A DNA stretch of 64,000 nt from Dromaius novaehollandiae (lineage: Eukaryota): contig NC_088128.1 in NCBI RefSeq assembly GCF_036370855.1, positions 292,899-356,898 of the forward strand, in the 5' to 3' direction. A model generated the notes under the pieces. It was not told the origin of the DNA and searched no databases. It saw nothing but the letters and a program-made list of their open reading frames with translations. The stretch's first letter is position 1, and the number at the start of each line of letters is the position of its first letter. The position numbers and the translations under genes are program-made. This document shows, in pieces, positions 8,105-61,582 of the stretch.

Positions 8105-9850
8105 GTCACCGTGACGTCACGGGGTCACACGCCTCGCACACGCCTCGCACACGCCTCGCACACGCCTCACACACGCCTTGACATGCCTCGCACATGCCCC
8201 GACACGCCTCGCACACGCTCCCACACGCCCCACGTGCCCCCACACACCTCGACATGTATCACACACGCATCGCACACGTCCCCCGCGTGCCCCACACGCC
8301 TCGCACATGCATCCACACGCCTCACACACGCCTCGCACACGCCCCGACACGCATCGCACACGCCCCTGTGCGCCCGTGACCCCACACACCTCGACATGTA
8401 TCACACATGCATCGCACATGTCCCCCGTGTGCCCCACACGCCTCGCACATGCATCCACACGCCTCGCACACGCCTCGCACACGCCCCGACACGCATCGCA
8501 CACGCTCCCACGCGCCCCACGTGCCCCCACACACCTCGACATGTATCACACACGCATCGCACACGTCCCCTGCGTGCCCCACATGCCTCGCACATGCATC
8601 CACACGCCTCGCACACGCCTCGCACACGCCCCGACACGCATCGCACACGCCCCTGTGCGCCCCGTGACCCCACGCACCTCGACATGTATCACACACGCAT
8701 CGCACACGTCCCCCGCGTGCCCCACACGCCTCGCACATGCATCCACACGCCTCGCACACACCTCGCACATGCCCCGACACGCATCGCACACGCCCCTGTG
8801 CGCCCCACGTGCCCCCACACACCTCGACATGTATCACACACGCATCGCACACGTCCCCCGCGTGCCCCAACACACCTCGTACACGCATCGGACATGCCTC
8901 AACACGCCTCTGCGTGACCCAGCATGCGTTGCACGCGCTTCGCACACGCCTGCACACGCATCACACGTGCTCCCGCGTGCCCCACACGGCCCAGCACGCA
9001 TCGCACACGCGTTGCACACGCCTCCACACGCCCCCACACCCATCGCACACACCTCCACACGCCTCAACACGCCTCCACATGCCTCACACGTGGCTCAACA
9101 TGCCTTGCACACGCCTCCACACACCCATGAGCCCACACACGCCCCCACATGCCTCGCATATGCCTCCACATGCCCCCACATGCATGACACACGCCTCTAC
9201 ACGCCCCCACACGCATCACGTACACATCGTACACACCCCCACATGCCTCCACACGCCTCTACATGCCTCTGTACGTCCCCACAGGCCTCGCGCCACCCCC
9301 ACACACCTCGCACATGCCCCCACATGCCTCCACACGCGTCGCACATGCCCCGCGTGCCTCCACATACATCATACACACCCGCACACGCCCCCACACACGC
9401 CTCAACATGCCTCCACATGCCTTGCACCACCCACATGCACCTCCACATGCCTCCACACGCCTTGCACACGCCTCGTGCCACCCCCACACGCCCCCACACG
9501 CCTCATGCCACCCACACACGCCTCCACACACCCCCACATGCCTCGCGCCGCCCCCACACGCCCTCACACACGCCTCGCACACGCCTTACATGCCTCCACA
9601 CACACATCAACACACCTCACGCCACACACATGCCTCCACACACCCCCACATGCCTCGCACACGCCTCATGCCACCCACATGCACCCCCCACATGCCCCCA
9701 TACACCGTATGCCACCCACACATGCCTTGTGCCGCCCACACATGCCTCCCGCCGCCTGTACACGCCTCCCGCCACCTGTACACACCAGGTACCGCCTGTA
9801 CACGCCTGGCACCGCCTGTACACGCGTGTGGCTCGGGCGCGGGGGCGGCG
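8105..9850. repeat. Array with short units (cacacgcctcg / cacacgcatcg) and a higher-order period of about 180 bp
   Basis: The blocks acgcctcgcacacgcc and gacatgtatcacacacgcatcgcacacgtccc recur at about 180-bp spacing. The 598-aa plus-strand ORF 8178..9974 is an artefact. Confidence 0.85.
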
Positions 9851-10019
9851 GGCGGGGGGGGCGCCCGGCCGCGGAGGCGCCCGAGCGGCTGCTCTGAGCA
9901 CCGGCTACCAAGCCCCGGCCCACGGCGGGGGCGGGGGCCTGTCGGGGTGCTGGGGACAGGCGGCGGCGCGGTGACGCGCGCGGGTGACGCGCGGGTGACG
10001 CGCGTGGCGCCGTCCCTAC

Positions 10020-10109
10020 CTTCGCGGGCCAGGTCGTCCAGCTCCTTCTTGTGGTCCACGTCGCCCTCCAGGCGCTCCTGGGCGGCGATGGTCTCCTCCT
10101 CGTCCTCGG
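10020..10109 (-). CDS. SRCAP: SRCAP coding exon
   Basis: Translation is (A)EDEEETIAAQERLEGDVDHKKELDDLARE(G). It matches human AEDEEDTIAAEEQLEGEVDHAMELSELAREG. Acceptor is cccctacag and donor is G|gtaggg. Confidence 0.85.
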
Positions 10110-10119
10110 CTGTAGGGGA

Positions 10120-12250
10120 CAGGCGGCGGGTCAGGGTGGGGACGGTGACACGGTGACACCGTGACCGGGGACACACCAACCAAAGTCACACCAAGTCGGG
10201 GGGACACCAACCGGGGGGGACACAGAAGGGGGACGACAGCAGTTCGGGTGACCCGGAGCCGGGTGATGCCGGGGAACAGGGTGACACACAGGTAGGGTGA
10301 CGCTGGGGAGGTGTTGCGGGGTGCCGGGGTGACAGGAGCAGGTGGGTGATGCTTGTAGGGAAGTGACGTTGGGACGGTGACACCACATGCAGGGTACGGA
10401 GCTGGGGGGTGACACCGGAGGGGAGGACACCGAGCAGGCGGGTGACACTGGCAGGGGGGAACCACAGAGCAGGTTGGTGACACCGCGAAAGGGTGACAAG
10501 GAGCAGCAGGGTGACACCAGGGTGGTGACACTGACAGGAGGCTACAGAGCCAGCGAGAGACACCGGGGGAGACACGGAGCAGCAGGGTGACACGGGGGGG
10601 GAGGACACAGAGCGGGTGACACCAAGCGGGCGACACCGCGAAAAGGTGACAAGGAGCAGCGGAGTGACGCTGCAGGGGTGACACCACCGGAATACAGAGC
10701 AGGAGGGTGACACTGGAGGAGACACACAGCAGGAAGGTGACACTGGGGGGAGGACACAGAGAGGGGGGTGACACTGGGCAAGTGACACTGTGAAAGGGTG
10801 ACACAAAGCAGTGGGCTGACACCATAGGGGTGACACCATGGGAACACACAGCGGGAAGGTGACACTGGGGGAAAACAGAGCAGGTAGGTGACACCGGGAG
10901 GATGATGGGGAGCAAATGGGTGACACTGGACAGGTGACACAGAATGGCAGGGTGATGCCAGGGCAGTGACACCATGAAAGGGTGACAGGGAGCAGCAGAA
11001 TGACACCATGGGGTGACACCAGGGGGGTGCAGTGCTGGGTAGTGACACCAGGGACAGGACACCAGGTGGGCAGGTGACACCCAGCGAGTGACACCAGGCA
11101 GGTGACACCGGGCGGCCAGGTGACACCGTGAAAGGGTGACAGGAAGCAGCACAATGACAGCATAGAGATGACACCAGGGCGGTGCAGTGCAGGGTGGTGA
11201 CACCGGAGACAGGACACCAGGTAGGCAGGTGATACCGGGCAGCAGGTGACACTAGGTGGGTGACACCAGGTGAATGGGTGACACCAGGCAGCCGGGTGAC
11301 ACTGCAAAAGGGTGACACAGAGCAGCAAAGCGACACCATAGGGATGACAGTGGGGGGATGCAGCACCAGGTGGTAACACCAGAGAGAGAACACTAGGTGG
11401 GCGGGTGACACCCAGCGAGTGACACCAGGCAGGTGACACCGGGCGGCCAGGTGACACCGTGAAAGGGTGACAGGAAGCAGCAGAATGACAGCATGGAGAT
11501 GACACCAGGGTGGTGCAGTGGTGGGTAGTGACACCGGGGACAGGACACCAGACAGGTGGGTGACACCAGGCAGCAGGTGACACCAGGTAGGTGACACCAG
11601 GCAAGCGGGTGACACCGGGCGGCCAGCTGACACTGCGAAAGGGTGACAGGCAGCAGCAGAACACCACCATAGGGGCGACACCAGGGGGTGTAGTGCTAGG
11701 CGGTAATATCAGAGACAGGACACCAGACGGCAGGGTGACACCGGGCGGGAGGTGACACCAAGCAAGCGGGTGACACCGGGTGGCTGGGTGACACCATGAA
11801 AGGGTGTCAGGGAGCAGCAGAGCAACACTATGAGGTGGTACCAGGGGGATGCAGCATTGGGCAGTAACACTGGGGACAGGACACCAGGCGGGTGGGTGAC
11901 ACCCAGGGAGTGACACCCATCAAGTAGGTGACACCGGGCAGCCGGGTGACACTGTGAAAGGGTGACAGGGAGCAGCACAGCAACACCATAGGGGCGACAT
12001 GAGGAGGAGGCAGTGCTGGGTGGTAACACCAGGGACAGGACACCAGGTGGGCGGGTGACACCCAGCAAGTGACACCAGATGAGCGGGTGACACTGTGTGT
12101 CCGGGTGACACTGCAAAAGGGTGACACGGAGCAGCAGAGCAACAGCATAAGGATGACGCTGGGGGGACGCAGCACCGGGTGGTAACACCAGGGCCATGAC
12201 GCTAGCTAGGCGGGTGACACCGGGCGGGAGGTGCCACCGAGCGGGTGACG
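10120..12250. repeat. Array of ggtgacacc-based units of about 24 bp with higher-order structure
   Basis: Units such as ggtgacaccgggcggccaggtgacaccgtgaaagggtgacaggaagcagcag repeat throughout. The array is G-rich on the plus strand. Confidence 0.8.
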
Positions 12251-18363: not shown

Positions 18364-18389
18364 CTGCGCCGCCGGCCACAGCGACGTCA

Positions 18390-21300
18390 GGCGCCCCAAA
18401 ATGGCTGACACCCCCCTACCCCCGGCCGAGGAGGGACCTGAAAACGCCCCGAGGTGCCCCAAAATGGCTGACACCCCCCTACTCCGTTGAGGAGGGACCC
18501 AAAAGTGCCCTGAGGTGCCCCAAAATGGCTGACACCCCCCTACCCCGGCCGAAGAGGGACCCGAAAGTGCCCTGAGGGGCCCCGAAATGGCTGACATCCC
18601 CCTACCCCGCTGAGGAGGGACCCGAAAACGCCCCGAGGTGCCCCAAAATGGCTGCCACCCTCCTACCCCGGCCGAAGAGGGACCTGAAAACGCCCCGAGG
18701 TGCCCCAAAATGGCTGCCACCCTCCTACCCTGGCCGAAGAGGGACCTGAAAGTGCCCTGAGGGGCCCCAAAATGGCTGACATCTCCCTACCCCTGCTAAA
18801 GAGGGACCTGAAAGTGCCCTGAGGGGCCCCAAAATGGCTGCCACCCTCCTACCCCACTGAGGAGGGACCCGAAAGTGCCCTGAGGTGCCCCAAAATGGCT
18901 GACACCCCCCTACCCCGGCCGAGGAGGGACCTGAAAGTGCCCTGAGGCGCCCCAAAATGGCTGCCACCCCCCTACCCCGCTGAGGAGGGACCCGAAAGCA
19001 CCCTGAGGCGCCCCAAAATGGCTGCCACCCTCCTACCCCGCTGAGAAGGGACCCGAAAGCGCCCTGAGGCGCCCCAAAATGGCTGCCACCCTCCTACCCC
19101 TGCCGAGGAGGGACCTGAAAACGCCCCGAGGTGCCCCAAAATGGCTGCCACCCTCCTACCCCGGCCGAAGAGGGACCCGAAAGTGCCCTGAGGCGCCCCA
19201 AAATGGCTGCCACCCCCCTACCCCTGTGGAGGAGGGACCCAAAAGTGCCCCAGGGTGCCCCAAAATGGCTGACATCCCCCTACCCCCGCTGAGGAGGGAC
19301 CCGAAAGTGCCCTGAGGCGCCCCAAAATGGCTGACACCCCCCTACCCCTGCCGAGGAGGGACCTGAAAGTGCCCTGAGGGGCCCCAAAATGGCTGACATC
19401 TCCCTACCCCTGCTAAAGAGGGACCTGAAAGTGCCCCGAGGTGCCCCAAAATGGCTGACACCCCTCCTACCCCGGCCGAAGAGGGACCCGAAAGTGCCCT
19501 GAGGTGCCCCAAAATGGCTGACATCCCCCTACCCCTGCTAAAGAGGGACCTGAAAGCGCCCTGAGGTGCCCCAAAATGGCTGCCACCCTCCTACCCCGCT
19601 GAGAAGGGACCAGAAAGCGCCCTGAGGCGCCCCAAAATGGCTGACACCCTCCTACCCCTGCCAAGGAGGGACCTGAAAGCGCCCTGAGGTGCCCCAAAAT
19701 GGCTGCCACCCTCCTACCCCGCTGAGAAGGGACCAGAAAGCGCCCTGAGGGGCCCCGAAATGGCTGACATCTCCCTACCCCCGCTGAGGAGGGACCTGAA
19801 AGCGACCTGAGGTGCCCCAAAATGGCTGCCACCCTCCTACCCCTGCCAAGGAGGGACCCGAAAGCGCCCTGAGGTGCCCCAAAATGGCTGACACCCCCCT
19901 ACCCCGGCCGAAGAGGGACCCAAAAGTGCCCTGAGGGGCCCCAAAATGGCTGCCACCCTCCTACCCCTGCCAAGGAGGGACCCGAAAGTGCCCTGAGGTG
20001 CCCCAAAATGGCTGACACCCTCCCGCTCCTGCCAGGGAGGGACCCCAAACCGCCCTGAGGCGCCCTAAAATGGCTGCCACCCCTCCTACCCTGGCCGAAG
20101 AGGGACCCAAAAGTGCCCTGAGGTGCCCCAAAATGGCTGCCACCCTCCTGCCCCTGCCAAGGAGGGACCCGAAAGTGCCCTGAGGTGCCCCAAAATGGCT
20201 GACACCACCCCCACTGCCCGCCACACGAAGGAGCTCCCCAAAATGGCTGCCACCCCCCCCATGGCAGAGCTGCTGGGAGAAGGGACCCCAAACCGCCCTA
20301 AGGGGCCCCAAAATGGCTGCCACCACCCCCTCCCGCCAAGAAGCGACCCGAAAGCGCCCTGAGGCATCCCAAAATGGCTGCCGCCCTCCCCACTGCCCAC
20401 GCCACCGAGGAGCTGCTGCAGAGAGGGACCCCCAAACTGCCCCAAGGTGCCCCAAAATGGCTGCCACCCCCCTGCCACCCCGCCGCCAAGGAGTGACTTG
20501 AAAGCACCCCGAGGAGCCCAAAAATGGCTGCCACCCCCCCCCACCACCGAGGAGGGACCCGAAAGTGCCCCAAGGTGCCCCAAAATGGTGCCTGCCCCAA
20601 AGAGAAGCGACTTGAAAGTGCCCCACGTTGCCCCAAAATGGCCGCCACCCCCCTCTGCCAAGGGGCGACTCAAAAGTGCCCCCAGGTGCCCCAAAATGGC
20701 TGCCACCCCCCCCGCCTGCCCCACAGAGGAGCTGCAAGCGAAGAGGGACCCCAAACCACCCCGATTCGCCCCAAAATGGTTCCCACCCTCCCCCTCGCTC
20801 GCCCCACAGAGGAGCTGCTGCGGAGAGGGACCCAAAACGGCCCCAAATCACCCCAAAATGTGCTCCCCCCCCCGCCACAGAGGAGCTGCTGGGGAGGGGG
20901 AAGCGCCCTGAGGCGCCCCAAAATGGCGGCCGCCGCCTCACGGGCCGCTCGGCTCCCTCAGCGCAGGGCTCGTCCTGAGGCGAGGAGGGCCCCAAAAGTG
21001 CCCCGATTCACCCCAAAATGGTTCCGATCCCCCCCCCCATCTGCCCCATGGAGGAGCTGCTGCGGAGAGGGACCCAAAACAGCCCCAAATCGCCCCAAAA
21101 TGTGCTCCCCCCACCACAGAGGAGCTGCTGGGGAGGCGGAAGCGCCCTGAGGTGCCCCAAAATGGCGGCCGCCACCTCACGGGCCGCTTGGCTCCCTCAG
21201 AGCGTGGCTCGTCCTGAGGCGAGGAGGGCCCCAAAAGTGCCCCGATTCACCCCAAAATGGTTCCGATCCCCCCCCCATCTGCCCCATGGAGGAGCTGCTG

Positions 21301-24300
21301 CGGAGAGGGACCCAAAACAGCCCCAAATCGCCCCAAAATGTGCTCCCCCCTGTCACAGAGGAGCTGCTGGGGAGAGGGAGGGGGAAGCGCCCTGAGGCGC
21401 CCCAAAATGGCAGCCGCCGCCTCACGGGCCGCGCGGTGACCTCAGCGCGGGGCCCGTCCTGAGGCGAGGAGGGACCCAAAAGTGCCCTGATTCACCCCAA
21501 AATGGTTCCCACCCTCCCCCTCGCTCGCCCCACAGAGGAGCTGCTGCGGAGAGGGACCCAAAACGGCCCCAAATCGCCCCAAAATGTGCTCCCCCCCCGC
21601 CACAGAGGAGCTGCTGGGGAGAGGGAAGCGCCCTGAGGCACCCCAAAATGGCGGCCGCCGCCTCACGGGCCGCTTGGCCCCCTCGGCGCAGGGCCCGTCC
21701 TGAGACGAGGAGGGACCCAAAACGGCCCCAATTCACCCCAAAATGGTTCCGATCCCCCCCCCATCTGCCCCACGGAGGAGCTGCTGCGGAGAGGGACCCA
21801 AAACAGCCCCAAATCGCCCCAAAATGTGCTCCCCCCCGCCACAGAGGAGCTGCTGGGGAGGGGGAAGCGCCCTGAGGCGCCCCAAAATGGCGGCCGCCGC
21901 CTCACAGGCCGCTCGGCCCCCTCGGTGCGGGGCCCGTCCTGAGGCGAGGAGGGACCCAAAACGGCCCCGATTCACCCCAAAATGGTTCCCACCCTCCCCC
22001 TCGCTTGCCCCACAGGGAAGCTGCTGCAGAGAGGGACCCAAAACGGCCCCAAATCGCCCCAAAATGTGCTCCCCCACCACCACAGAGGAGCTGCTGGGGA
22101 GAGGGAGGCGGAAGCACCCTGAGGCGCCCCAAAATGGCGGCCGCCGCCTCACGGGCCGCTCGGTGACCTCAGCGCGGGGCCCGTCCTGAGGCAAGGAGGG
22201 ACCCAAAACGGCCCCAATTCACCCCAAAATGGTTCCGATCCCCCCCCCATCTGCCCCACGGAGGAGCTGCTGCGGAGAGGGACCCAAAACAGCCCCAAAT
22301 CGCCCCAAAATGTGCTCCCCCCCTGCCACAGAGGAGCTGCTGGGGAGGGGGAAGCGCCCTGAGGCGCCCCAAAATGGCAGCCGCCGCCTCACAGGCCGCT
22401 CGGCCCCCTCGGTGCGGGGCCCGTCCTGAGGCGAGGAGGGACCCAAAACGGCCCCAATTCACCCCAAAATGGTTCCAATCCCCCCCCCATCTGCCCCATG
22501 GAGGAGCTGCTGCGGAGAGGGACCCAAAACGGCCCCAAATCGCCCCAAAATGTGCTCCCCCACCACCACAGAGGAGCTGCTGGGGAGGGGGAAGCGCCCT
22601 GAGGTGCCCCAAAATGGCGGCCGCCGCCTCACGGGCCGCTCGGCCCCCTCGGTGCGGGGCCCATCCTGAGGCAAGGAGGGACCCAAAACGGCCCCCATTC
22701 GCCCCAAAATGGTTCCCACCCTCCCCCTCGCTCGCCCCACAGAGGAGCTGCTGCGGAGAGGGACCCAAAACGGCCCCAAATCGCCCCAAAATGTGCTCCC
22801 CCCTGTCACAGAGGAGCTGCTGGGGAGGGGGAAGCGCCCTGAGGTGCCCCAAAGTGGCGGCCGCCGCCTCACGGGCCGCTTGGCCCCCTCGGCGCAGGGC
22901 CCGTCCTGAGGCGAGGAGGGACCCAAAACGGCCCCGATTCACCCCAAAATGGTTCCGATCCCCCCCCATCTGCCCCATGGAGGAGCTGCTGGGGAGAGGG
23001 ACCCAAAACGGCCCCAAATCGCCCCAAAATGTGCTCCCCCCCGCCACAGAGGAGCTGCTGGGGAGGGGGAAGCGCCCTGAGGCGCCCCAAAATGGCGGCC
23101 GCCGCCTCACGGGCCGCTTGGCCCCCTCGGCGCAGGGCCCGTCCTGAGACGAGGAGGGACCCAAAACGGCCCCGATTCACCCCAAAATGGTTCCGATCCC
23201 CCCCCATCTGCCCCATGGAGGAGCTGCTGGGGAGAGGGACCCAAAACAGCCCCAAATCGCCCCAAAATGTGCTCCCCCCCCGCCACAGAGGAGCTGCTGG
23301 GGAGGGGGAAGCGCCCTGAGGTGCCCCAAAATGGCGGCCGCCGCCTCACGGGCCGCGCGGTGACCTCAGCGGGGGTTGGGCTGCCAGGACGGCCCCAAAA
23401 CGGCCCCAAATTGCCCCAAAACGGCCCCAAATTGCCCCAAAACGTCTCCCCGTCCCCACAGACATGCTCGACCATCTCACCGCGGTTTTGACTGACAGGA
23501 AAGACCCAAAACGGCCCAAAGTTGCCCCAAAACACTTTTCCATCCCCACACTTGTGTTTGGTGATGTCAGTGCAGGATCTGACTACCAAAAAAGGCCCAA
23601 AACGGCCAAAAATCACCCCAAAACACTCCCTTGTCCCCACACTCACATTCGGTGACCTCAGTGCTGTTTTCACCGCCGAAACGGACCCAAAACGGCCCCA
23701 ATTCACCCCAAAACGCTTCCCTGTCTCCACAAACACGTTTGGTGACCTCAGTGCGGGTTTGACTGCCGAGACCGACCCAAAATCACCCCGATTCGCCCCA
23801 AAACCACCCCGATTCGCCCCAAAACACTTCCCCGTCCCCACACTCGCGTTTGATGACCTCAGTGCGGTTTTGACTACCAAAAAAGACCCAAAACAGCCTC
23901 AAATTGCCCCAAAACACTTTCTTGTCCCCACACTCGCGTTTGGTGACCTCAGTGTGGAATTTGACTGCTGAGACGCACCCAAAACAGCCCCGATTCACCC
24001 CAAGACACTTTCCTGTCCCCACACTCGCGTTTGGTGACCTCAGTGCAGCTTTTGACTACCAAAAAAGACCCAAAACAGCCTCAAATTGCCCCAAAGCACT
24101 TCCCCGTCCCCACACTCATGTTTGGTGACCTCAGCGAGGTCTTGACTGCCGAGACGGACCCAAAACCACCCCGATTCGCCCCAAAACACTTCCCTGTCCC
24201 CACACTCACGTTTGGTGACCTCAGTGTGGAATTTGACTGCCGAGACGGACCCAAAATGGCCCCAAATCACCCCAAAACACTTTCCTGTCCCCACACTTGC

Positions 24301-25195
24301 GTTTGGTGACCTCAGTGTGGAATTTGACTGCTAAGACGGACCCAAAACCGCCCCAATTTGCCCCAAAACACTTCCCTGTCCCCACACTCGCGTTTGGTGA
24401 CCTCAGTGTGGAATTTGACTGCCGAGACCGACCCAAAACCGCCCCAAATCACCCCAAAACACTTTCCTGTCCCCACACTCACGTTTGGCGACCTCAGTGT
24501 GGAATTTGACTGCCGAGACGGACCCAAAACCGCCCCAATTTGCCCCAAAACACTTCCCTGTCCCCACAGATGTGTTTCGTGACCTCAGCGCAGTTTTGAC
24601 TGCCGAGACCGACCCAAAATGGCCCCAAATCACCCCAAAACACTTCCCTGTCCCCACACTCCCGTTTGGCGACCTCAGTGCGGTTTTGACTGCCGAGACG
24701 GACCCAAAACCGCCCCAAATCACCCCAAAACACTTTCCTGTCCCCAGAGATGTGTTTGGCGACCTCAGCGCGATTTTCACCACCGAGACGGACCCAAAAC
24801 GGCCCCAAATCGCCCCAAAACACTTCCCTGTCCCCACACTCACGTTTGGTGACCTCAGTGCAGCTTTTGACTACCAAAAAAGACCCAAAACAGCCTCAAA
24901 TTGCCCCAAAACACTTCCCCGTCCCCACACTCAGGTTTGATGATCTCAGCGAGGTCTTGACTGCCGAGACGGACCCAAAACCACCCTGATTTGCCCCAAA
25001 ACACTTCCCTGTCCCCACACTCGCGTTTGGTGACCTCAGTGCGGATTTGACTGCTGAGACGCACCCAAAACAGCCCCGATTCACCCCAAAACACTTCCTT
25101 GTCCCCACACTCGCGTTTGGTGACCTCAGCGCGGTTTTGACTGCTGAGACGCACCCAAAACCGCCCCGATTCGCCCCAAACGGCCCCCCGTCGCC
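18390..25195. repeat. Three contiguous related arrays filling a 6.8-kb SRCAP intron, all sharing a ccccaaaatgg / gacccaaaac core
   Basis: From 18390 to 20400 the unit is about 60 bp (ccccaaaatggctg(a/c)cacccccctaccccggccgaggagggacctgaaagtgccctgaggtg). From 20400 to 23350 the unit is about 240 bp, with ccccaaaatggttcc at 21013, 21251, 21490, 21732 and further on. From 23350 to 25195 the unit is about 90 bp, with gtttggtgacctcag at 23940, 24036, 24121, 24212 and further on. Confidence 0.85.
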
Positions 25196-25203
25196 CCACT
25201 CAC

Positions 25204-25571
25204 GTGCTTGGCCTGCTCGGCGATCTCGGCGTGCGTGCGGTCCCAGAGGCTGGGGGGCTCCGGGGGGGCGGCGGCGGCGTCCAGCGACCCCCCCCCGGCG
25301 GCGGCGGCGGCGGGGGGGGCGGCGGGGGAGCCGGCCGAGGCGGGCGACACGGGCTCGCCGCCCGTCATGGCGCCCGTTGCGGGGGGGGGCGGCGGCGGCG
25401 GCGGGGGGGTGACGGTCACCTCGGGGCGCTGCGGCGGGCGGGCGGGGGGGGCGCGGGGGGGCGGGGGGGCGGCCTCATCCTGCTGCTCGGGCGGCCGCCG
25501 GGCCGGGCCGTCCAGCTCCTGGGTGCCCTGGCGGCCCAGCCTGCGCTCCGGGCCGCCGGGCGCCGAACCGC
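25204..25571 (-). CDS. SRCAP: SRCAP first coding exon; the start codon is probably the ATG at 25368..25366
   Basis: Translation is MTGGEPVSPASAGSPAAPPAAAAAGGGSLDAAAAPPEPPSLWDRTHAEIAEQAKH, ending in donor |gtgagtgg at 25203. Human has MTGSNPVSPASS...KGPKWEKSHAEIAEQAKH. Acceptor is cccccccgcag at 25572. The in-frame sequence upstream of the ATG is Pro/Ala-rich and unlike the human N-terminus, so 25369..25571 is probably 5'UTR. Confidence 0.8.
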
Positions 25572-25579
25572 CTGCGGGG

Positions 25580-27700
25580 GGGGGGGGGACAGCGCTCAGC
25601 ACCCATGGGTGCCCCCCCCGGCACCCTTGGGTGCTCCCCCCCCCCGGCACCCACCTGCGTGCGCTGGGCCCTCCTCCTCCTCCTCGCACTCCACTTCCAC
25701 GGTGCCGGTGGGGCGGCGAGGGGCGCTGCTGCGGGGGGGGGGGGGAACATGGGGGGGGTCAGGGGGGGCACCCATGGGTGCTGCTGGGTGCCGCCCTTTG
25801 GACCCCATGGTGCTCGCTGACCCCTGACCTGCGTCGCTGTGGGCCCCCCCCCCAGCCCAAAATACACACTGAGGGCACCCTGACCCCCCCCCCATGACAC
25901 CCTGAGCCCCCCAGGACCCCTCTGACCCCCCCATGACACCCTGAGCCCCCCATGACACCCTGAGCCCCCCCCCGGGACCCGTCCCCCATATTGGGGGCAC
26001 CCTGAGCCCCCCAGGACCCCCCTGATGACACCCTGACCCCCCCCAGAGCACCCTGAGCCCCCCCAGGACGTGTCCCCCATATTGGGGGCACCCTGACCCC
26101 CTCTGACCCCCCTCCCCAGGGCACCCTGAGCCCCCCAGGACCCCTCTGACCCCCCCCATGACACCCTGAGCCCCCCCCCAGGACCCGTCCCCCATATTGG
26201 GGGCACCCTGAGCCCCCCAGGCCCCCCCTGATGACACCCTGATCCCCCTCCCAGAGCACCCTGAGCCCCCCCAGGACGTGTCCCCCATATTGGGGGCACC
26301 CTGACCCCCTCTGACCCCCCCCAGGGCACCCTGAGCACCCCAGGACCCCTCTGACCCCCCCCCATGACACCCTGAGCCCCCCCAGGGCACCCTGAGCCCC
26401 CCCAGGGGCACCCTAAACGTCTCCAACCCCCCCACTGGAGGCACCCTGAGCCCCCCCGGGACCCACCCCCTATATTGGGGGCACCCTGAGCCTCTCTGAC
26501 CCCCCCAGGGGCACCCTGACCCCCCCCATGACACCCTGAGCCCCCCAGTGACACCCTGACTCCCCCAGGGGCACCCTAAATGCCTCCAACCCCCCCCCAG
26601 ACCCTCCTGACCCCCCCACCAGGGGCACCCTGAGCCCCCCCCAGGACCTGTCTCTCATATTGGGGGCACCCTGATCCTCTCTGACCCCCCCCGGGGCACC
26701 CCTGCCCCCCCCCAGGGCACCCTGACCACCCCCAGCAGCACCCTAAATGCCTCCAACCCCCCCCGGACCCTCCTGACCCCCCCACCAAGGGCACCTTGAG
26801 CCCCCCGGGACCCGTCCCCTATATTGGGTGCACCCTGACCCTCTCTGACCCCCCCTCCGGGGCACCCTGAGCCCCCCAGCACCCCCTGACCCCCCCCAGG
26901 GCACCCTGACCCCCACCAGTGACACCCTGACCCCCCCAGGGGTACCCTAAATGCCTCCAACCCCCCCGACCCTCCTTACCCCCCCACCAGGGGCACCCTG
27001 ACCCCCTCTGACCCCCCCACAGCACCCTGATCCCCCCGCAGACCTGTCCCCCACATCGGGGGCACCCTAAACCCCTCTGACCCCCCCAGGGGCACCCTGA
27101 CCCCCCCAAGACCCCCCCTAACCCCCATATCGGGGGTACCCTGACCCTCTCCGACCCCCCCAGGGCACCCTGACCACCCCGGGGCACCCTGACCCCCCCC
27201 AGGACCTGTCCCCCACACTAGGACCCCCCCAACCCAATTCAAGACCCCCCTGACCCCCACATTGGGGGCACCCTGACCCCCTCTGACCCCCCCCACCCTG
27301 ACCTGTCTCTCTGACTGGGACCCCCCTGATCCCCTCTGACCCCCCCCCCAGGGCACCCTCACCCCCCCCGACCCTCCCAGAGGCACCCTGAGCCCCTCAG
27401 GACCCATCTCCCACATCGAGGGCACCCTGACCCCCTCTGACCCCCCCCAGGGCACCCTGACCACCCCCCCCCCAGGCACCCTCTGAGCCCCCTGACCTCC
27501 CCAGGGGCACCCTGACCCCCCCTGGGCACCCTGAGACCCCCAGGACCCCCCCAGGGGCACCCTAACCCCCTCAGACCCCCCAGGGCACCCTGAGCCCCCC
27601 AACCCCCCCCCAGAGCACCCTGAGTCCCCCAGGACCCCCCTTGACCCCCAGGACCCCCCCAGGGGCACCCTGACCCCTTCTGACCCCTCCCCGGGGCACC
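25580..27700. repeat. Array based on ggcaccctgagcccccccaggacc, unit about 30-60 bp
   Basis: The array fills part of SRCAP intron 1. It is C-rich on the plus strand. Confidence 0.8.
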
Positions 27701-30050
27701 CTGACCCCCCCCGGCCTTAGGCCCCCCCCTTTGCAGCCCCCCACCCATGGGTGCCCCACGCCGGGACCCCCGAACCAGCACCCAGCACCGGGGCTGCCCC
27801 ACACCGGAGCCCCCCCTCACCCCACACTGGGACCCCTAACCAGGACCCCCCCCCTCACCCCCCACCGGAGCCCCCCAGCCCCACACGGGACCCCTAACCA
27901 GGACCCCCCCCACCCCACACCGGGGCTCCCAGCTGCCCCATAGAGGACCCCCCTCGCCCCACACCGGGACCCCCTCCCTGAGCCCCCCAGGGGAGCCCCC
28001 CCTTGCCCCACATTGGGCCCCACACGTCACCCCATCACCCCAGACCGGGACCCCTAAGTGGGACCCCCTGGCCCCACAGCGGAGCCCCTCACCCCACACT
28101 GGGACCCCTAACTGGGACCCCCAGCCCCACACCAGAGCCCCCAGACCAGAGGCCTCAGGCCCCACACCAGGACCCCCAGCTGCCCCATAGAGGAGCCCCC
28201 TCACCCCACACTGGGACCCCTCTCTGGGGACCCCCCCAGCCCCACACTGGGACCCCTAACTGGGACCCCCAGCCCCACACCGGGACCCCTAACTGGGACC
28301 CCCAGCCCCACACCAGGACCCCTGACTGGAGCCTCTCACCCCACACCAGGGCCCCCGGCTGCCCCATAGAGGAGCCCCCTCACCCCACACCGGGACCCCT
28401 CACTGAGCCCCCCAGCCCCACACCAGGACCCCTAACTGGGACCCCCAGCCCCACGCCAGAGCCCCCAGACCAGAGGCCTCAGGCCCCACACCGGGACCCA
28501 CACGGGAGCCCCTCACTCCACATCAGGTCACCCCACACCGGGGCCCCTGGCTGCCCCATGGAAAGGTCCCCTCACCCCACACCGGGACCCCTCTCTGGGG
28601 ACCCCCCCAGCCCCACACCGGGCCCCCTAACTGGGACCCTCAGCCCCACACCAGAGCCCCCAGACCAGAGGCCTCAGGCCCCACACCGGGACCCACACGG
28701 GAGCCCCCTCACCCCACACCAGGACCCCCTCAATGGGGACCCCCCCAGCCCCACACTGGGACCCCTAACTGGGACCCCCAGCCCCACACTGCGACCCCTA
28801 ACTGGGACCCCCAGCCCCACACCAGAGCCCCCAGACCAGAGGCCTCAAGCCCCACACCGGAGCCCCAAACCGGACCCCCTCACCCCCCACTGGGACCCCA
28901 CGGAGGAGGCCCTCAAGCCCCACACCAGGGCCCCCCTGGCCCCACACCGGGACCCCTAACTGGGACCCCCAGCCCCACGCCAGAGCCCCCAGACCAGAGG
29001 CCTCAGGCCCCACACCAGGGCCCCCAGCTGCCCCATAGAGGAGCTCCCTCACCCCACACCGGGACCCCTCACTGGGGACCCCCCAGCCCCACACCAGGAC
29101 CCCTAACTGGGACCCCCAGCCCCACGCCAGAGCCCCCAGACCAGAGGCCTCAGGCCCCACACCGGGACCCACACGGGAGCCCCTCACTCCACATCAGGTC
29201 ACCCCACACCGGGGCCCCTGGCTGCCCCATGGAAAGGTCCCCTCACCCCACACCGGGACCCCTCTCTGGGGACCCCCCCAGCCCCACACCACGACCCCTA
29301 ACTGGGACCCCCAGCCCCACACCAGAGCCCCCAGACCAGAGGCCTCAGGCCCCACACCGGGACCCACACGGGAGCCCCCTCACCCCACACCAGGACCCCC
29401 TCAATGGGGACCCCCCAGCCCCACACCGGGACCCCTAACTGGGACCCCCAGCCCCACACTGGGACCCCTAACTGGGACCCCCAGCCCCACGCCAGAGCCC
29501 CCAGACCAGAGGCCTCAAGCCCCACAGCGGAACCCCCGGCTGCCCCATAGAGGAGCCCCTTCACCCCACACCGGGACCCCTGACCAGAGCCCCCGGCTGC
29601 CCCACACCGAGGCCCCCTCACTGAGCACCCCCAGCCCCACACCGGAGTCTCCCAGCCCCACGCCGGGGCTCCTGGCTGCCCCATTGAAGGGTCCCCTCAC
29701 CCCACAGCAGGGCTCCCCTTAGGGGGGACCCCCAGCCCCACACCGGGGCCCTCAGCTGCCCCATAGAGGAGCCCCCTCGCCCCACACCGGGGCCCCCTGA
29801 CCGGAGGCCTCAAGCCCCACACCGGGCCCCACACGGGACCCCCTGACCCCACACCGGGGCCCTCGGCTGCCCCATAGAAGAGCCCCCTCGCCCCACACCG
29901 GGGCTGCCCTCACTGGGGACCCCCCGGCCCCACACCGGGACCCCAAACCGGAGCCCCTCGCCCCACACCGGGGCTCCCGGCTGCCCCACACCGCAGCCCC
30001 CTGACCGGAGGCCTCGAGCCCCACACGGGACCCCCGGCTGCCCCACACCG
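27700..30050. repeat. Array of about 60-bp sub-units (ccccacaccgggacccctaactgggacccccagccccacaccagagcccccagaccagaggcctcaggc) with higher-order structure
   Basis: The array fills the rest of SRCAP intron 1. Confidence 0.8.
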
Positions 30051-30219
30051 GGGCCCCCCCGGCCCCTCAGGCGGGCGGGAAGCGGCGGCCGGGGGGAGGG
30101 GAGGGGGCGCCGCGCGCGGCCGTTTCCCGCCGTTTCCCGCGGGCGGCGCGCGCGGGGCCGGGGGGGGGGGCGGAGGGGGGGGGGCAGCGCGCGGGGCCGC
30201 GTCCGCGCCGCCATCTTAC

Positions 30220-30400
30220 CTGGGCGGGAGGGGAGGGGGGAGGCGGGAGGGGGGCGGGGGCGAGGGGAGGCGCCTGCCCGCTCCCGCCTCCGCCGCCGCC
30301 GCCTCAGCCGCGGCGCCGCCGCCGATCCGCCGCCATCCGCGGCCCGCCCGCCCCGGCCGCCGCCGCTCCGCCCGCCCCGGCCGCCGCGCCGCCGCGCCAA
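30220..30400 (-). other. SRCAP: Putative SRCAP non-coding exon 1 (5'UTR); the 5' end is undefined
   Basis: A strong minus-strand donor CCCAG|gtaaga lies at 30219-30218. It overlaps a YY1 core AAGATGGCGGC (plus strand gccgccatctt, 30207-30217). A 4.65-kb repeat-filled intron separates it from the acceptor at 25572. Alternatively the YY1 core marks a TSS and the first exon continues downstream. Confidence 0.35.
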
Positions 30401-31100
30401 AATGGCGCCCGCCGCGCCGCCTCGCTCACCGCCCCCCCCCCGCCTCCCCCGCGCCGCCGCCGCCGCCCGCCGCGCCCGCCGCCCCCCTCCCCCCCGCGCC
30501 GCGCCAGGCCCCGCCGCCGCCGAGAGGGGCTCACGGGAAATGGAGTCCGCGGCGCCAGGGCGAGCGGCAAAATGGCGGCGGCCGCCGCGGCCCGGCGCTC
30601 TCGCGAGAGGGGCGGGCGGCGCCGCCCCCCGCCCCGAGGGGAGGGGGGAGAGCGGAAGTCTCGCGAGAGGAGGGGGCGCGGCGGCGTGGGGAGGGGGGAG
30701 ATCTCGCGAGAGCGCGGCGCGGAGGGGGATGGGAAATGGAGGCGCGGCGCCGGGCGGGCGGGAGGGAGGGAGGAAGTCTCGCGAGAAGAGGGGAGGCGGG
30801 GTGAAAGCGCGGGGACGCGTGCGCGCGAGCTCTCGCGAGAATTGGGGAGGCGAAAGAAAGGGCGGGGAGCCGGCGCCGAGTCTCGCGAGAGCTGGGCGGG
30901 AGGCGGGGCGGCGCCGCGCGGCATGCCGGGAGCGGGCGCTCCCGCGCGGGAACGGCGTCGGGGGGGGGGGAGGAAGATGGCGGCGGGAGGCGCGTGGCGG
31001 CGGGCCCCGCCCCCTCGCCCAAGTCTCGCGAGAGCTGCGGGTCCGGCCACGAGAGTCTCGCGAGACTCGCGGAGCTCCGTGGGAAATGGAGGCCTGGGCG
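30400..31100. promoter_or_regulatory. CpG-island promoter region with eight TCTCGCGAGA palindromes and several YY1 cores, upstream of SRCAP
   Basis: TCTCGCGAGA occurs at 30599, 30659, 30702, 30777, 30831, 30881, 31024 and 31056. YY1-like cores on the plus strand are caaaatggcgcc at 30398, caaaatggcggcggc at 30568 and aagatggcggcgg at 30974. GGGAAATGGAG occurs at 30535, 30731 and 31081. The plus-strand ORF 30402..31199 was judged non-coding. Confidence 0.55.
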
Positions 31101-31289
31101 CGGGGCGTGCTGGGAGATGTAGTCCCGCCCCCAAAGAGGGTCAGAGGGCCCCCCCGGGTCCTAAAGACCTCCCCCCCTCTCCCGGCACCCTCGCATTGAC
31201 GCAGGTACCTGTGACATCACAGGCCTGCCAGTGACATCATCGCTCCCATGACATCACAGCTTGGGCAGCAAAGCATCGAGTAAAGCTGT

Positions 31290-32789: not shown

Positions 32790-33030
32790 GCCCGCCCCGA
32801 CCTCGCCGCCGCGGCCCCGCCAATGGGCGCGCGCCTTGCTGCCGGGCGCCGCCGGCGCGGGCCAATGGGAGCGCGGCTTGCTTGGGGGGCGGGGGGAGGC
32901 GCCGCGGCGGCGAAGGGCAGCGGCGCCTTCTTGAGGGAGGACAGGAGGCGGCCGGGGGGCGGGGCCGCCGAAGCCGCCGCCGCCATCTTGGGTGAGGGAA
33001 GGGGGGGGCTTAAAGGGGCCGCGCGGCTGC
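32790..33030. promoter_or_regulatory. Orphan promoter-like unique island (twin CCAAT boxes, GC boxes, YY1 core, TTAAAG box)
   Basis: gccaatggg occurs at 32818 and 32862. gccgccgccatcttgg|gtgaggg lies at 32975-32996. Read on the plus strand it is a donor-like GTGAGG. Read on the minus strand it is caagATGGCGGCGGC, a YY1-type initiator opening the ORF MAAAASAAPPPGRLLSSLKK. The 16-mer gcttaaaggggccgcg at 33008-33023 is identical to the one at the ALDOA 5' end (63938-63953). Confidence 0.4.
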
Positions 33031-35640: not shown

Positions 35641-35870
35641 TCTAGGACCCAGGGAGAGGCCACGGCAGTGGGCGGGGCCACAGCCCCCCCACCCCTCCCA
35701 TTGGCTCCTGCCTCCCACCAATGAGGGGGCTACAGGGGCGGGGCCTGGGGAGGCAGGCCAGGACGCTGGGGGGCGGGGCTAAGGGGCAGGGGGCGGGGCT
35801 TGGGGAGGGGGCGGGGCCAGGGCAGCCCGAACACCTGGGTCCCTTCGGGGGGGGGGGGGGACAGCGACTC
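35640..35870. promoter_or_regulatory. GC-box / CCAAT cluster, unique sequence
   Basis: cccattggctcc and caccaatgag form inverted CCAAT boxes at 35697-35730. Five or more gggcgggg Sp1-type boxes lie between 35735 and 35820. Confidence 0.4.
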
Positions 35871-35874
35871 CCAT

Positions 35875-36010
35875 TTCTGTGCTTTTTTTTTGCTGTTTTT
35901 ATTACAATTTTGCGGATTTTTGCGGTTTTTTTTTCCCTCTTTTTTTCTTTTTTTTTTTTTTATCTAAAAGGAGCAGAAAGAGCGTCCGGAAAACAAAAAC
36001 GTACGGAACC
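35875..36010 (-). terminator. PPP4C: The only AT-rich tract in the region, carrying a minus-strand AATAAA; candidate 3' end of the PPP4C transcript
   Basis: The plus strand reads ctttttttttgctgtttttattacaattttgcgg. The minus strand therefore carries AATAAA at 35903..35898, followed by an A-rich run. It is the first AATAAA on the minus strand downstream of the PPP4C stop at 37336. Confidence 0.35.
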
Positions 36011-61460: not shown

Positions 61461-61462
61461 AC

Positions 61463-61582
61463 CAGTGGACTCATCGGCGGCGAGGATGCCCTTGCCGGGG
61501 GCGACGATGCGCAGGGCGATGTCGGCGAGCTCCTTCTTCTGCTCGGGGCTCAGCGCCGGGTACTGGTGCGGCATGGCGGCTC
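61463..61582 (-). CDS. ALDOA: ALDOA first coding exon (ATG at 61574..61572)
   Basis: Translation is [37 protein letters not shown](G). Human ALDOA has [38 protein letters not shown]. Acceptor is cccccgcag at 61583 and donor is G|gtgaggc at 61462. Confidence 0.9.

What the first reader, a model, noticed from the sequence alone, without database searches (positions are those of the whole stretch)
30400..31100. A CpG island upstream of SRCAP carries eight TCTCGCGAGA palindromes in about 470 bp plus YY1 cores in both orientations
The 10-bp palindrome TCTCGCGAGA is the CGCG element bound by BANP, described in mammalian CpG-island promoters. It occurs at 30599, 30659, 30702, 30777, 30831, 30881, 31024 and 31056. 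YY1-type cores (AAGATGGCGGC or AAAATGGCGGC) lie at 30398, 30568 and 30974 on the plus strand and at 30207-30217 on the minus strand. GGGAAATGGAG modules recur at 30535, 30731 and 31081. Promoters normally carry one or two CGCG elements. A block of eight suggests either a modular, repeat-derived promoter for SRCAP or a bidirectional promoter shared with an unannotated plus-strand transcript.
Basis: partly seen in the sequence, partly recalled or inferred. Interest (0 to 1): 0.65.

Follow-up and report, generated by a model that had tools for sequence, protein, structure and literature searches.

The report
Bird SRCAP promoter with repeated BANP-type motifs
This is the CpG-island promoter of the chromatin-remodeller gene SRCAP in a bird; it carries eight perfect copies of a known housekeeping-promoter motif (TCTCGCGAGA), and the same promoter has 3 copies in kakapo and 15-17 in budgerigar, so a known motif has become a copy-number-variable array here.

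Summary
Eight exact TCTCGCGAGA lie at the stated coordinates, against about 0.002 expected locally. No copy with 1-2 mismatches occurs anywhere in the 64 kb. They sit in a sharply bounded CpG island (30,000-31,130; GC 0.83, CpG o/e 1.03).

SRCAP is on the minus strand, with its ATG at 25,368. ALDOA and PPP4C lie upstream on the same strand.

Orthologous loci settle what the block is. In kakapo and budgerigar the same interval, from the PPP4C 3' end to SRCAP exon 1, carries 3 and 15 (+2 near-exact) copies. In budgerigar they form an obvious ~46-bp tandem repeat. Two window copies (30,702 and 30,659) align with two kakapo copies. The YY1-type core at 30,569, the GGGAAATGGAG element at 30,535 and an adjacent splice donor are also conserved. 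Human SRCAP is already listed among genes with a CGCG element.

So this is the SRCAP promoter, built around an old, diverged motif array. The 10-mers are perfectly kept while their flanks are at background similarity.

A plus-strand partner gene is not: none is found, and in parrots PPP4C ends 0.2-0.5 kb upstream. BANP binding and the TSS positions are inferred, not shown.

This is a new variant of a known kind, of moderate interest.

The parts
30000..31130 (.). CpG island holding the SRCAP promoter and non-coding exon 1
   Evidence: GC 0.827 and CpG o/e 1.03, with sharp drops to o/e 0.05-0.55 on both sides. GC skew flips sign near 30,530.
30599..30608 (.). CGCG element 8 in SRCAP-sense order, the copy nearest exon 1. 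It has no kakapo counterpart.
30659..30668 (.). CGCG element, positional orthologue of kakapo copy 3 (L005 10072). GGAAGT abuts it on the plus strand.
30702..30711 (.). CGCG element, positional orthologue of kakapo copy 2 (L005 10028). The spacing to the next copy is 43 nt, against 44 nt in kakapo.
30777..30786 (.). CGCG element. Its left flank is 70% identical to that of the 30659 copy.
30831..30840 (.). CGCG element, part of a weak 54-bp repeat of 2.2 copies (30775-30890).
30881..30890 (.). CGCG element. It aligns weakly with kakapo copy 1 (E = 2e-4).
31024..31033 (.). CGCG element
31056..31065 (.). CGCG element, the most distal copy. It is embedded in the 14-bp palindrome AGTCTCGCGAGACT.
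30569..30579 (+). YY1-type core AAAATGGCGGC, read as GCCGCCATTTTGCCGC on the SRCAP strand. It is conserved in kakapo and budgerigar.
30399..30409 (+). YY1-like core AAAATGGCGCC, read as GGCGCCATTTTG on the SRCAP strand. It is conserved in kakapo, with a similar site in budgerigar.
30974..30984 (+). YY1 core AAGATGGCGGC inside the motif block. No conservation was shown.
30207..30217 (-). YY1 core AAGATGGCGGC, immediately 3' of a consensus donor CAG|GTAAGA whose last exon base is 30,220. This is a possible alternative end of exon 1.
30535..30546 (-). It resembles the ACTACAnnTCCC (ZNF143/THAP11-type) promoter motif. It is followed directly by the donor CCC|GTGAGC. Both are conserved in kakapo, and the donor also in budgerigar, where it ends exon 1 of the NCBI gene models.
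30731..30741 (+). Second GGGAAATGGAG module
31081..31091 (+). Third GGGAAATGGAG module
31112..31123 (-). Exact ACTACAnnTCCC motif (ACTACATCTCCCAGCAC on the SRCAP strand) at the distal edge of the island
25655..25728 (-). SRCAP 5' exon 2 (translates ..TGTVEVECEEEEEGPAHA). It is conserved with the kakapo and budgerigar models.
25204..25571 (-). SRCAP exon 3, holding the conserved start codon (ATG at 25,368; MTGGEPVSPAS...)
35690..35830 (-). GC-box/CCAAT module just downstream of the PPP4C 3' end. It is homologous to the GC-box run that directly abuts CGCG copy 1 in kakapo. In the window it is separated from the block by about 4.6 kb, mostly satellite.

Best explanation
The block is the core of the CpG-island promoter of SRCAP (minus strand). 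In birds this promoter lies directly downstream of the 3' end of PPP4C.

It is a cluster of one motif type, the CGCG element TCTCGCGAGA. In mammals this motif is bound by BANP and acts as an activating promoter element. The cluster arose by tandem duplication of a ~43-46-bp unit. Its copy number differs between bird lineages: 3 in kakapo, 8 here, and 15 exact plus 2 near-exact in budgerigar. In this genome the units are old. Their flanks have diverged to background similarity while every 10-mer stays perfect, which points to selection on the motif itself.

Inferred mechanism: several BANP-type factors bind the unmethylated motifs and keep the island nucleosome-depleted and unmethylated. This happens between CpG-depleted satellites, whose CpG loss suggests methylation. 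The bound factors set dispersed transcription starts some tens of bp from individual elements. Transcripts run through the proximal elements, a conserved YY1-type site and an ACTACA-like site, then splice at the conserved donor at 30,535 (or alternatively at 30,220) to exon 2 at 25,728. More copies would give stronger or more robust activity.

Shown here: sequence, statistics, gene map, orthology and copy-number variation. Inferred: factor binding, TSS positions, methylation state and any dosage effect.
For: Gene context
- The motif count and the statistics are given, and the island metrics.
- SRCAP exons lie on the minus strand.
- ALDOA and PPP4C lie upstream on the same strand.
- Nothing else recognisable lies between the PPP4C 3' end (~35,900) and the island.

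Orthologues
- Kakapo L005 has PPP4C followed by SRCAP-like, with 3 exact motifs at 9930, 10028 and 10072.
- Kakapo 10027-10351 aligns with window(-) 30712-30368 at 68.5% identity over 352 nt, E = 3e-33. The alignment pairs two motif copies, the GCCGCCATTTTGCCGC site, ACT[G/C]CATTTCCC and the GTGAGC donor.
- Budgerigar L006 has the same gene order, with 15 exact and 2 one-mismatch motifs in 756 bp. TRF gives periods of 46 and 87.
- The NCBI models P0080 and P0121 start inside the arrays, and their first exon ends at that conserved donor.

Constraint on the motif
- The ±30-nt flanks of the eight window copies are 39% identical, against 36% for random 30-mers from the block.
- All eight cores are perfect and no decayed copy exists.

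Literature
- Human SRCAP, paired with the divergent lncRNA RP11-146F11.1, is in the S2 list of CGCG-regulated genes of Mahpour et al. 2018 (PMC6192621).
- That paper reports that the motif tends to be multi-copy (DENR has 3 copies) and that TSSs lie 20-70 bp from the element on either strand.
- It also reports that two copies gave about 4-fold more reporter activity than one.
- ChIP-seq places BANP on TCTCGCGAGA (Grand et al. 2021, as cited in PMC10206803).
Against: - No expression, CAGE, methylation or ChIP data were available for this species. The TSS, BANP occupancy and hypomethylation are all inferences.
- The parrot gene ranges returned are CDS ranges of automatic models. Their upstream 'coding' exon 1 is probably 5' UTR, because its reading frame is not conserved with the window. 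RNA support for the exon 1 donor is therefore assumed, not seen.
- Other CpG-rich satellites in the window also have high CpG o/e (for example 8-10 kb and 57-58 kb), so a high o/e alone does not prove promoter status.
- The cyprinodont fish Xenoophorus and the frog Ranitomeya show no motif within the upstream DNA fetched. The Coryphaenoides hit, 6.6 kb upstream, is of uncertain assignment. The motif is therefore not shown to be pan-vertebrate at this gene.
- The isolated BANP BEN domain was reported to be methylation-insensitive in vitro (PMC10206803), which complicates the 'reads unmethylated CpG' step.
Confidence: 0.72

Rival explanations
1. Neutral minisatellite. One ancestral CGCG element happened to sit in DNA that is very prone to tandem duplication, on an avian dot chromosome. 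The extra copies are by-products with no added function.
For: - 68% of the window is tandem repeat.
- The budgerigar array is a plain, young tandem repeat in which flanks were co-amplified, and two of its copies already carry a mismatch.
- Copy number varies 3 / 8 / 15(+2) with no obvious pattern.
- YY1-like cores are likewise carried passively in intronic satellites.
Against: - In the window the flanks have decayed to background (39% against 36%), yet all eight 10-mers, each holding two CpGs, are perfect. No copy with 1-2 mismatches exists.
- Under equal neutral decay, a pair of 10-mers would stay identical with probability of roughly 0.39^10, about 1e-4.
- Two copies are also conserved in position with kakapo, inside an alignment that is only 68.5% identical.
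Confidence: 0.15
2. Bidirectional promoter shared with an unannotated plus-strand gene or spliced lncRNA running away from SRCAP.
For: - CGCG elements drive divergent transcription in reporters, and human SRCAP is paired with a divergent lncRNA in the published list.
- GC skew is positive on the plus strand from 30,530 to 31,100 and negative from 30,300 to 30,520, the pattern seen at divergent CpG-island promoters.
- A small CCAAT/YY1 element with a plus-strand donor lies at 32,800-32,991.
Against: - No protein homology lies between 31,100 and 37,300, and there is no Rfam hit.
- No plus-strand donor lies between the block and 32,991, and the interval is a 37-bp satellite.
- In kakapo and budgerigar the PPP4C 3' end lies about 0.2-0.5 kb upstream on the same strand, leaving no room for a conserved divergent gene.
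- The 32,800-33,000 element has no parrot homologue.
Confidence: 0.1
3. Boundary element. The dense array mainly acts as a roadblock or insulator. It would stop PPP4C read-through and the spread of satellite heterochromatin into the SRCAP start, rather than setting the transcription level.
For: - In all three birds the array sits right after the PPP4C 3' end, in tandem orientation.
- In the window it is wedged between CpG-depleted satellites.
- Chicken dot chromosomes are reported to be highly methylated and repeat-rich (PMC9974502).
Against: This is purely contextual, and no insulator function of CGCG/BANP sites was found in the papers read. Kakapo manages with 3 copies in the same tandem arrangement. 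The idea is compatible with the best explanation rather than exclusive of it.
Confidence: 0.1
4. The motif is read by a factor other than BANP. ZBTB33/Kaiso, DYRK1A-containing complexes and ZBED1/hDREF-like factors have all been linked to TCTCGCGAGA.
For: The literature links this 10-mer to ZBTB33 ChIP peaks (PMC3663758) and to DYRK1A at ribosomal-protein promoters (PMC10813206). Mahpour et al. discuss the similarity to hDRE/ZBED1.
Against: Mahpour et al. found that ZBED1 knock-down had no effect on DENR, a gene with three CGCG copies. BANP is the factor for which direct binding and a crystal structure with CTCTCGCGAGAG are reported. None of this can be tested from sequence.
Confidence: 0.15

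Closest known systems
CGCG element / BANP motif in TATA-less CpG-island promoters (Mahpour et al. 2018, PMC6192621; Grand et al. 2021 as cited in PMC10206803; HNRNPK promoter, PMC2920758)
   Same: - The exact 10-bp palindrome is present.
- It sits in a CpG island at the 5' end of a housekeeping-type gene.
- Multi-copy occurrence is described in the literature.
- Human SRCAP itself is on the published CGCG gene list.
   Different: Copy number is far above the described examples: 8 here and 15-17 in budgerigar, against 1-3 (DENR has 3). The copies derive from a tandem ~43-46-bp unit and vary between related species. Some copies probably lie within the transcribed first exon.
Promoter minisatellites / VNTRs that carry transcription-factor sites
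   Same: Tandemly duplicated short units each carry a binding motif, and copy number varies between lineages. The budgerigar array is a textbook case (TRF period 46, 11.8 copies).
   Different: In the window the array is no longer a recognisable tandem repeat, since only the motif cores survive. Polymorphism within a species was not examined.
YY1 core-promoter motif (AAGATGGCGGC / GCCGCCATTTTG) and ACTACAnnTCCC (ZNF143/THAP11-type, 'motif 7' of Mahpour et al.)
   Same: Both motif types accompany the CGCG elements. The 30,569 YY1-type site and the 30,535 ACTACA-like site are conserved in kakapo at the same positions relative to the exon 1 donor.
   Different: The three GGGAAATGGAG modules differ from the consensus ACTACAATTCCC at two positions. 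The 30,399 site is GGCGCC rather than GGCGGC. YY1-like cores are also abundant in intronic satellites, so their presence alone is weak evidence.
Bidirectional CpG-island promoters
   Same: There is a GC-skew switch, and the motif is known to fire in both directions.
   Different: No partner gene was detected, and the upstream neighbour is a co-oriented gene's 3' end.

Membership tests
CGCG-element (BANP-motif) CpG-island promoter | Exact or near-exact TCTCGCGAGA consensus | tested here: met
   Eight exact copies against about 0.002 expected locally.
CGCG-element (BANP-motif) CpG-island promoter | Located in a CpG island with little CpG depletion | tested here: met
   GC 0.83 and CpG o/e 1.03, with flanks at 0.05-0.55. 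The unmethylated state is inferred from this.
CGCG-element (BANP-motif) CpG-island promoter | At the 5' end of a gene, with a TSS about 20-70 bp from an element | tested here: inconclusive
   The gene map places the block at the SRCAP 5' end. The parrot gene models start inside the arrays and end exon 1 at a donor conserved in the window at 30,535. No TSS data were available.
CGCG-element (BANP-motif) CpG-island promoter | Conservation of the element in orthologous promoters | tested here: met
   Kakapo has 3 copies, two of them positionally aligned, and budgerigar has 15+2. Human SRCAP is in the published list. Not found in the fetched upstream DNA of one fish and one frog.
CGCG-element (BANP-motif) CpG-island promoter | BANP occupancy and motif-dependent activity | not testable with these tools
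   Requires ChIP or CUT&RUN and reporter mutagenesis in avian cells.
Tandem repeat (minisatellite) | Head-to-tail units of constant period with similar sequence | tested here: not met
   - In the window the spacings are 60, 43, 75, 54, 50, 143 and 32.
- TRF finds only a 54-bp repeat of 2.2 copies there.
- Window flank identity is 39% against a 36% background.
- The feature is met in the budgerigar orthologue, with period 46, 11.8 copies and 68% matches.
- The window array is therefore a decayed derivative, not a current tandem repeat.
Bidirectional (head-to-head) gene-pair promoter | A second gene or spliced transcript on the opposite strand starting within about 1 kb | tested here: not met
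   There is no homology, Rfam hit or plus-strand donor before 32,991. Parrots have the PPP4C 3' end there. Unspliced divergent RNA was not testable.
YY1 core-promoter element | GCCATnTT core with a GGCGGC extension, positioned near the TSS or exon 1 and conserved | tested here: inconclusive
   Four sites are present. The 30,569 and 30,399 sites are conserved in kakapo. The same core occurs 45 times in intronic satellites, so specificity is low.
ACTACAnnTCCC (ZNF143/THAP11-type) promoter motif | Match to ACTACAnnTCCC(AGCA) | tested here: inconclusive
   There is one exact match at 31,112-31,123 and one 1-mismatch match at 30,535. With 1 mismatch allowed, the count is not above chance (2 found, 3.8 expected). 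The 30,535 site is conserved in kakapo and partly deleted in budgerigar.

The most novel reading that the evidence does not exclude
The SRCAP promoter of birds is an evolvable array of BANP-type sites whose copy number (3 to 17) is under selection. The expansion would compensate for a hostile setting: a highly methylated, satellite-invaded dot chromosome, with the co-oriented gene PPP4C ending a few hundred bp upstream. In this genome, 4.6 kb that is mostly satellite has also separated the old GC-box/CCAAT module from the core promoter. Copy number would then act as a rheostat or anti-silencing buffer for a dosage-sensitive chromatin remodeller.
Probability: 0.25. Interest if true: 0.7.

Novelty: new variant of a known kind. 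Interest (0 to 1): 0.55.

Why it matters
The CGCG/BANP element is an established activator of housekeeping CpG-island promoters. The natural examples named in the papers read here have one to three copies. Dosage effects have been tested only with synthetic concatemers.

A natural orthologous series of 3, 8 and 15-17 copies at one conserved gene would make motif dosage directly testable. The same series could be used to ask about TSS choice and resistance to methylation. It also shows how the extreme tandem-repeat dynamics of avian dot chromosomes can remodel a promoter while selection preserves only the 10-bp cores.

SRCAP is dosage-sensitive in humans (Floating-Harbor syndrome; my own knowledge, not checked here). 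How its promoter is buffered is therefore of some interest.

Tried and rejected
- **Passerine loci.** Camarhynchus (L001) and Zosterops (L002) were fetched for comparison. Their upstream DNA is satellite or ends at the contig edge, so neither was informative.
- **Other vertebrates.** Shark L003, the fish Xenoophorus L007 and the frog Ranitomeya L008 have no motif in the upstream DNA fetched. The promoter may lie outside the fetched range.
- **Coryphaenoides L004.** A TCTCGCGAGA and a YY1 site next to a donor lie 6.6 kb upstream of the first srcap coding exon. I first took this as matching the window's 30,220 donor. The parrot data point to 30,535 instead, and the fish assignment remains uncertain.
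- **Failed look-ups.** The Phodopus Srcap look-up found nothing.
- **Full-length SRCAP proteins.** The protein search never returned any, only fragments, which limited the number of bird orthologues.
- **Candidate genes between PPP4C and SRCAP.** YPEL3 and a T-box (TBX6-like) probe gave no hit. Rfam found no family anywhere in the window.
- **The 32,800-33,000 CCAAT/YY1 element.** It was tested as a displaced piece of the parrot upstream module, but its similarity is not above shuffles.
- **Helical or nucleosomal phasing of the eight copies.** The spacings are irregular and no claim is made.
- **Recalled probe sequences.** The human SRCAP, PPP4C and ALDOA sequences used as tblastn probes were recalled from memory and served only as probes. 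The SRCAP N-terminus agrees with database fragments P0009-P0011.
Full report
**1. Checking the observation**

The sequence shows eight exact TCTCGCGAGA at 30599, 30659, 30702, 30777, 30831, 30881, 31024 and 31056. They occur nowhere else in the 64 kb.
- Whole-window shuffles expect 0.01 copies.
- A Markov-1 model and 5000 dinucleotide-preserving shuffles of the island alone expect about 0.002, with a maximum of 1.
- No copy with one or two mismatches exists anywhere in the window.
- All eight TCGCGA hexamers in the island are part of the full 10-mer.

The block lies in a sharply bounded CpG island. The interval 30,000-31,130 has GC 0.827 and CpG o/e 1.03. The neighbouring 200-bp windows fall to o/e 0.05-0.55.

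The YY1-type cores need small corrections.
- The '30568' site starts at 30569.
- The '30398' site starts at 30399 and reads AAAATGGCGCC.

GGGAAATGGAG occurs three times as stated, against 0.04 expected.

**2. Gene map**

Tblastn probes and six-frame reading place three genes on the minus strand.
- ALDOA runs from about 61,574 to 49,028.
- PPP4C runs from 45,657 to 37,339. Its conserved 3'-UTR end is near 35,955-35,986.
- SRCAP has its conserved start codon at 25,368 (MTGGEPVSPAS...). Its HSA exon starts at 18,372, and its SNF2 exons extend down to position 80.

TRF masks 68% of the window as tandem repeat. This fits an avian dot chromosome. ALDOA is reported on chicken chromosome 38, and dot chromosomes are described as GC-rich, repeat-rich and highly methylated (PMC12954441; PMC9974502).

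Between the PPP4C 3' end and the island I found no coding homology and no Rfam family. The island is therefore the 5' end of SRCAP. It lies 4.6-5.8 kb upstream of the ATG across a satellite-filled intron.

**3. Orthologues decide what the block is**

*Kakapo.* In the kakapo contig (L005), PPP4C is followed directly by a 'helicase SRCAP-like' model.
- Three exact TCTCGCGAGA lie at 9930, 10028 and 10072, about 460 bp after the PPP4C 3' end.
- Kakapo 10027-10351 aligns with window minus strand 30712-30368 at 68.5% identity over 352 nt, E = 3e-33.
- That alignment pairs kakapo copy 2 with the window copy at 30,702 and copy 3 with 30,659. The spacing is 44 nt against 43 nt.
- It further pairs the GTGAGC donor that follows that module, and GGCGCCATTTTG (the 30,399 site).
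- The first CDS exon of kakapo model P0080 begins just after copy 1, reads through copies 2 and 3, and ends at that donor.

*Budgerigar.* The budgerigar contig (L006) has the same gene order.
- It carries 15 exact and 2 one-mismatch copies between 9601 and 10356.
- These form an evident tandem repeat with TRF periods 46 and 87. The unit is approximately GAGATCTCGCGAGATCC...CTGTGGCTGTGAAGGAGCGGC.
- Model P0121 starts inside the array, and its first exon ends at the conserved TTCCC|GTGAGC donor.

*Window structure inferred from these.*
- The homologous donor is CCC|GTGAGC, with last exon base 30,535.
- A stronger consensus donor, CAG|GTAAGA, lies at 30,220 and overlaps the minus-strand YY1 core. 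It is a possible alternative.
- Exon 2 (25,728-25,655) and exon 3 (25,571-25,204) are conserved with both parrots.

**4. Is the array constrained?**

In the window the ±30-nt flanks of the eight copies are on average 39% identical. Random 30-mers from the block are 36% identical.

Only traces of duplication remain:
- a 70% left-flank match between the 30,659 and 30,777 copies;
- a 54-bp repeat of 2.2 copies at 30,775-30,890;
- a pair 118 bp apart.

Yet all eight cores are perfect, each holds two CpGs, and no decayed copy exists. Two cores are also conserved in position with kakapo, in an alignment that is only 68.5% identical. This pattern is what selection on the motif would give. It is hard to reconcile with a purely neutral minisatellite. 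The budgerigar array looks younger and already shows two degenerate copies.

**5. Likely mechanism**

The published properties of the motif are as follows.
- It is enriched in DNase-accessible CpG-island promoters of housekeeping genes and tends to occur in several copies. DENR has three.
- It is sufficient for bidirectional initiation, with TSSs 20-70 bp away.
- Two copies gave about 4-fold more reporter activity than one.
- With four concatenated copies, the TSSs moved closer to the elements (PMC6192621).
- Human SRCAP, paired with lncRNA RP11-146F11.1, is on that paper's list of CGCG-regulated genes.
- ChIP-seq assigns the motif to BANP (Grand et al. 2021, cited in PMC10206803).
- ZBTB33 and DYRK1A have also been linked to the motif.

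From this I infer three steps.
- The avian array binds several BANP-type molecules.
- This keeps the island open between CpG-depleted satellites.
- Dispersed SRCAP starts arise within or next to the array.

The GC skew flips near 30,530. The plus strand is C-rich at 30,300-30,520 and G-rich at 30,530-31,100. This is compatible with divergent transcription from that point but is not proof of it.

**6. Bidirectional-partner hypothesis**

Nothing supports a plus-strand gene.
- There is no homology.
- There is no plus-strand donor before 32,991.
- A 37-bp satellite begins 240 bp from the last motif.
- In both parrots the co-oriented PPP4C ends 0.2-0.5 kb upstream.

An unspliced upstream antisense RNA remains possible.

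**7. Local history**

The GC-box run that abuts CGCG copy 1 in kakapo (9821-9923) is homologous to window 35,737-35,817, next to the PPP4C 3' end. Blastn gives 79% identity and E = 4e-12. The local-alignment score is 73, against a shuffle maximum of 34.

In this genome, therefore, about 4.6 kb now lies between the old upstream module and the core promoter. That stretch holds two satellite blocks and a small CCAAT/YY1 element at 32,800-33,000 that has no parrot homologue. Whether the higher motif count compensates for this separation is speculation.

**8. Verdict**

The promoter assignment and the repeat-derived origin are supported. The shared-bidirectional-gene idea is not. Binding, TSS positions and methylation state remain to be shown.

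The feature is a new variant of a known promoter element: a lineage-variable array rather than one to three sites. It is of moderate interest.

Noticed in passing
window 1-64000: 68% of the window is tandem repeat by TRF. The introns of SRCAP, PPP4C and ALDOA are almost entirely satellites, and the exons appear as 200-400-bp unmasked islands.
   Followed up: partly
window 60,208-61,574 (minus strand): The segment encoding ALDOA residues ~11-38 is present eight times in tandem (75-89% identity to the probe). An exon fragment has been swept into an intronic satellite.
   Followed up: no
window 18,397-24,623 (minus strand); also L005 6177-6364 and 24987-25571: The YY1-type core GCCATTTTG occurs 45 times on the SRCAP-sense strand inside the 62-bp, 240-bp and ~90-bp intronic satellites. 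AAAATGGCGGC occurs 8 times at 20,920-23,338. Kakapo satellites carry similar cores. This is either passive carriage or an intronic YY1 site array.
   Followed up: partly
window 32,800-32,991: A small CpG-rich element lies between two satellites. It has two CCAAT boxes (32,821 and 32,863), GC boxes, a minus-strand AAGATGGCGGC (32,979-32,989) and the only plus-strand donor-like site in the region (TGG|GTGAGG at 32,991). Its similarity to the parrot loci is not significant. It may be an orphan or lineage-specific promoter.
   Followed up: partly
window 35,690-35,830 vs L005 9,821-9,923: A GC-box/CCAAT module next to the PPP4C 3' end is homologous to the GC-box run that directly abuts the CGCG array in kakapo. 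This implies that about 4.6 kb, mostly satellite, was inserted into the promoter in this lineage.
   Followed up: yes
window 30,119-30,140: A perfect 10-bp tandem GCCGTTTCCC (2.2 copies) gives two E2F-like TTTCCCGC sites about 80 bp beyond the 30,220 donor.
   Followed up: no
window 25,728-25,369 (minus strand); P0080, P0121: The sequence upstream of the canonical SRCAP ATG stays open and in frame with it, and is similar at protein level in the window, kakapo and budgerigar (..TVEVECEEEEEGPAH.GGS..ERRLGR.G.QELD..). The window segment (25,728-25,369) has no ATG in that frame. The frame of exon 1 is not conserved, owing to a 1-nt indel at the start of exon 2. It could be a conserved 5' UTR, a uORF-like element or a non-AUG N-terminal extension.
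   Followed up: partly
window 37,339-61,574 and 80-25,368: The gene order ALDOA - PPP4C - SRCAP, all on one strand, is shared for PPP4C-SRCAP with kakapo and budgerigar. It differs from the human 16p11.2 order as I remember it, where SRCAP lies about 0.6 Mb from PPP4C. No TBX6 or YPEL3 homology was found next to PPP4C.
   Followed up: partly
window 30,653-30,668 and 30,771-30,786; L005 10,067-10,081: An ETS-like core GGAAGT abuts the CGCG element (GGAAGTCTCGCGAGA) at two window copies and at kakapo copy 3. Relative to the SRCAP strand, it lies on opposite sides of the palindrome in the two species.
   Followed up: no
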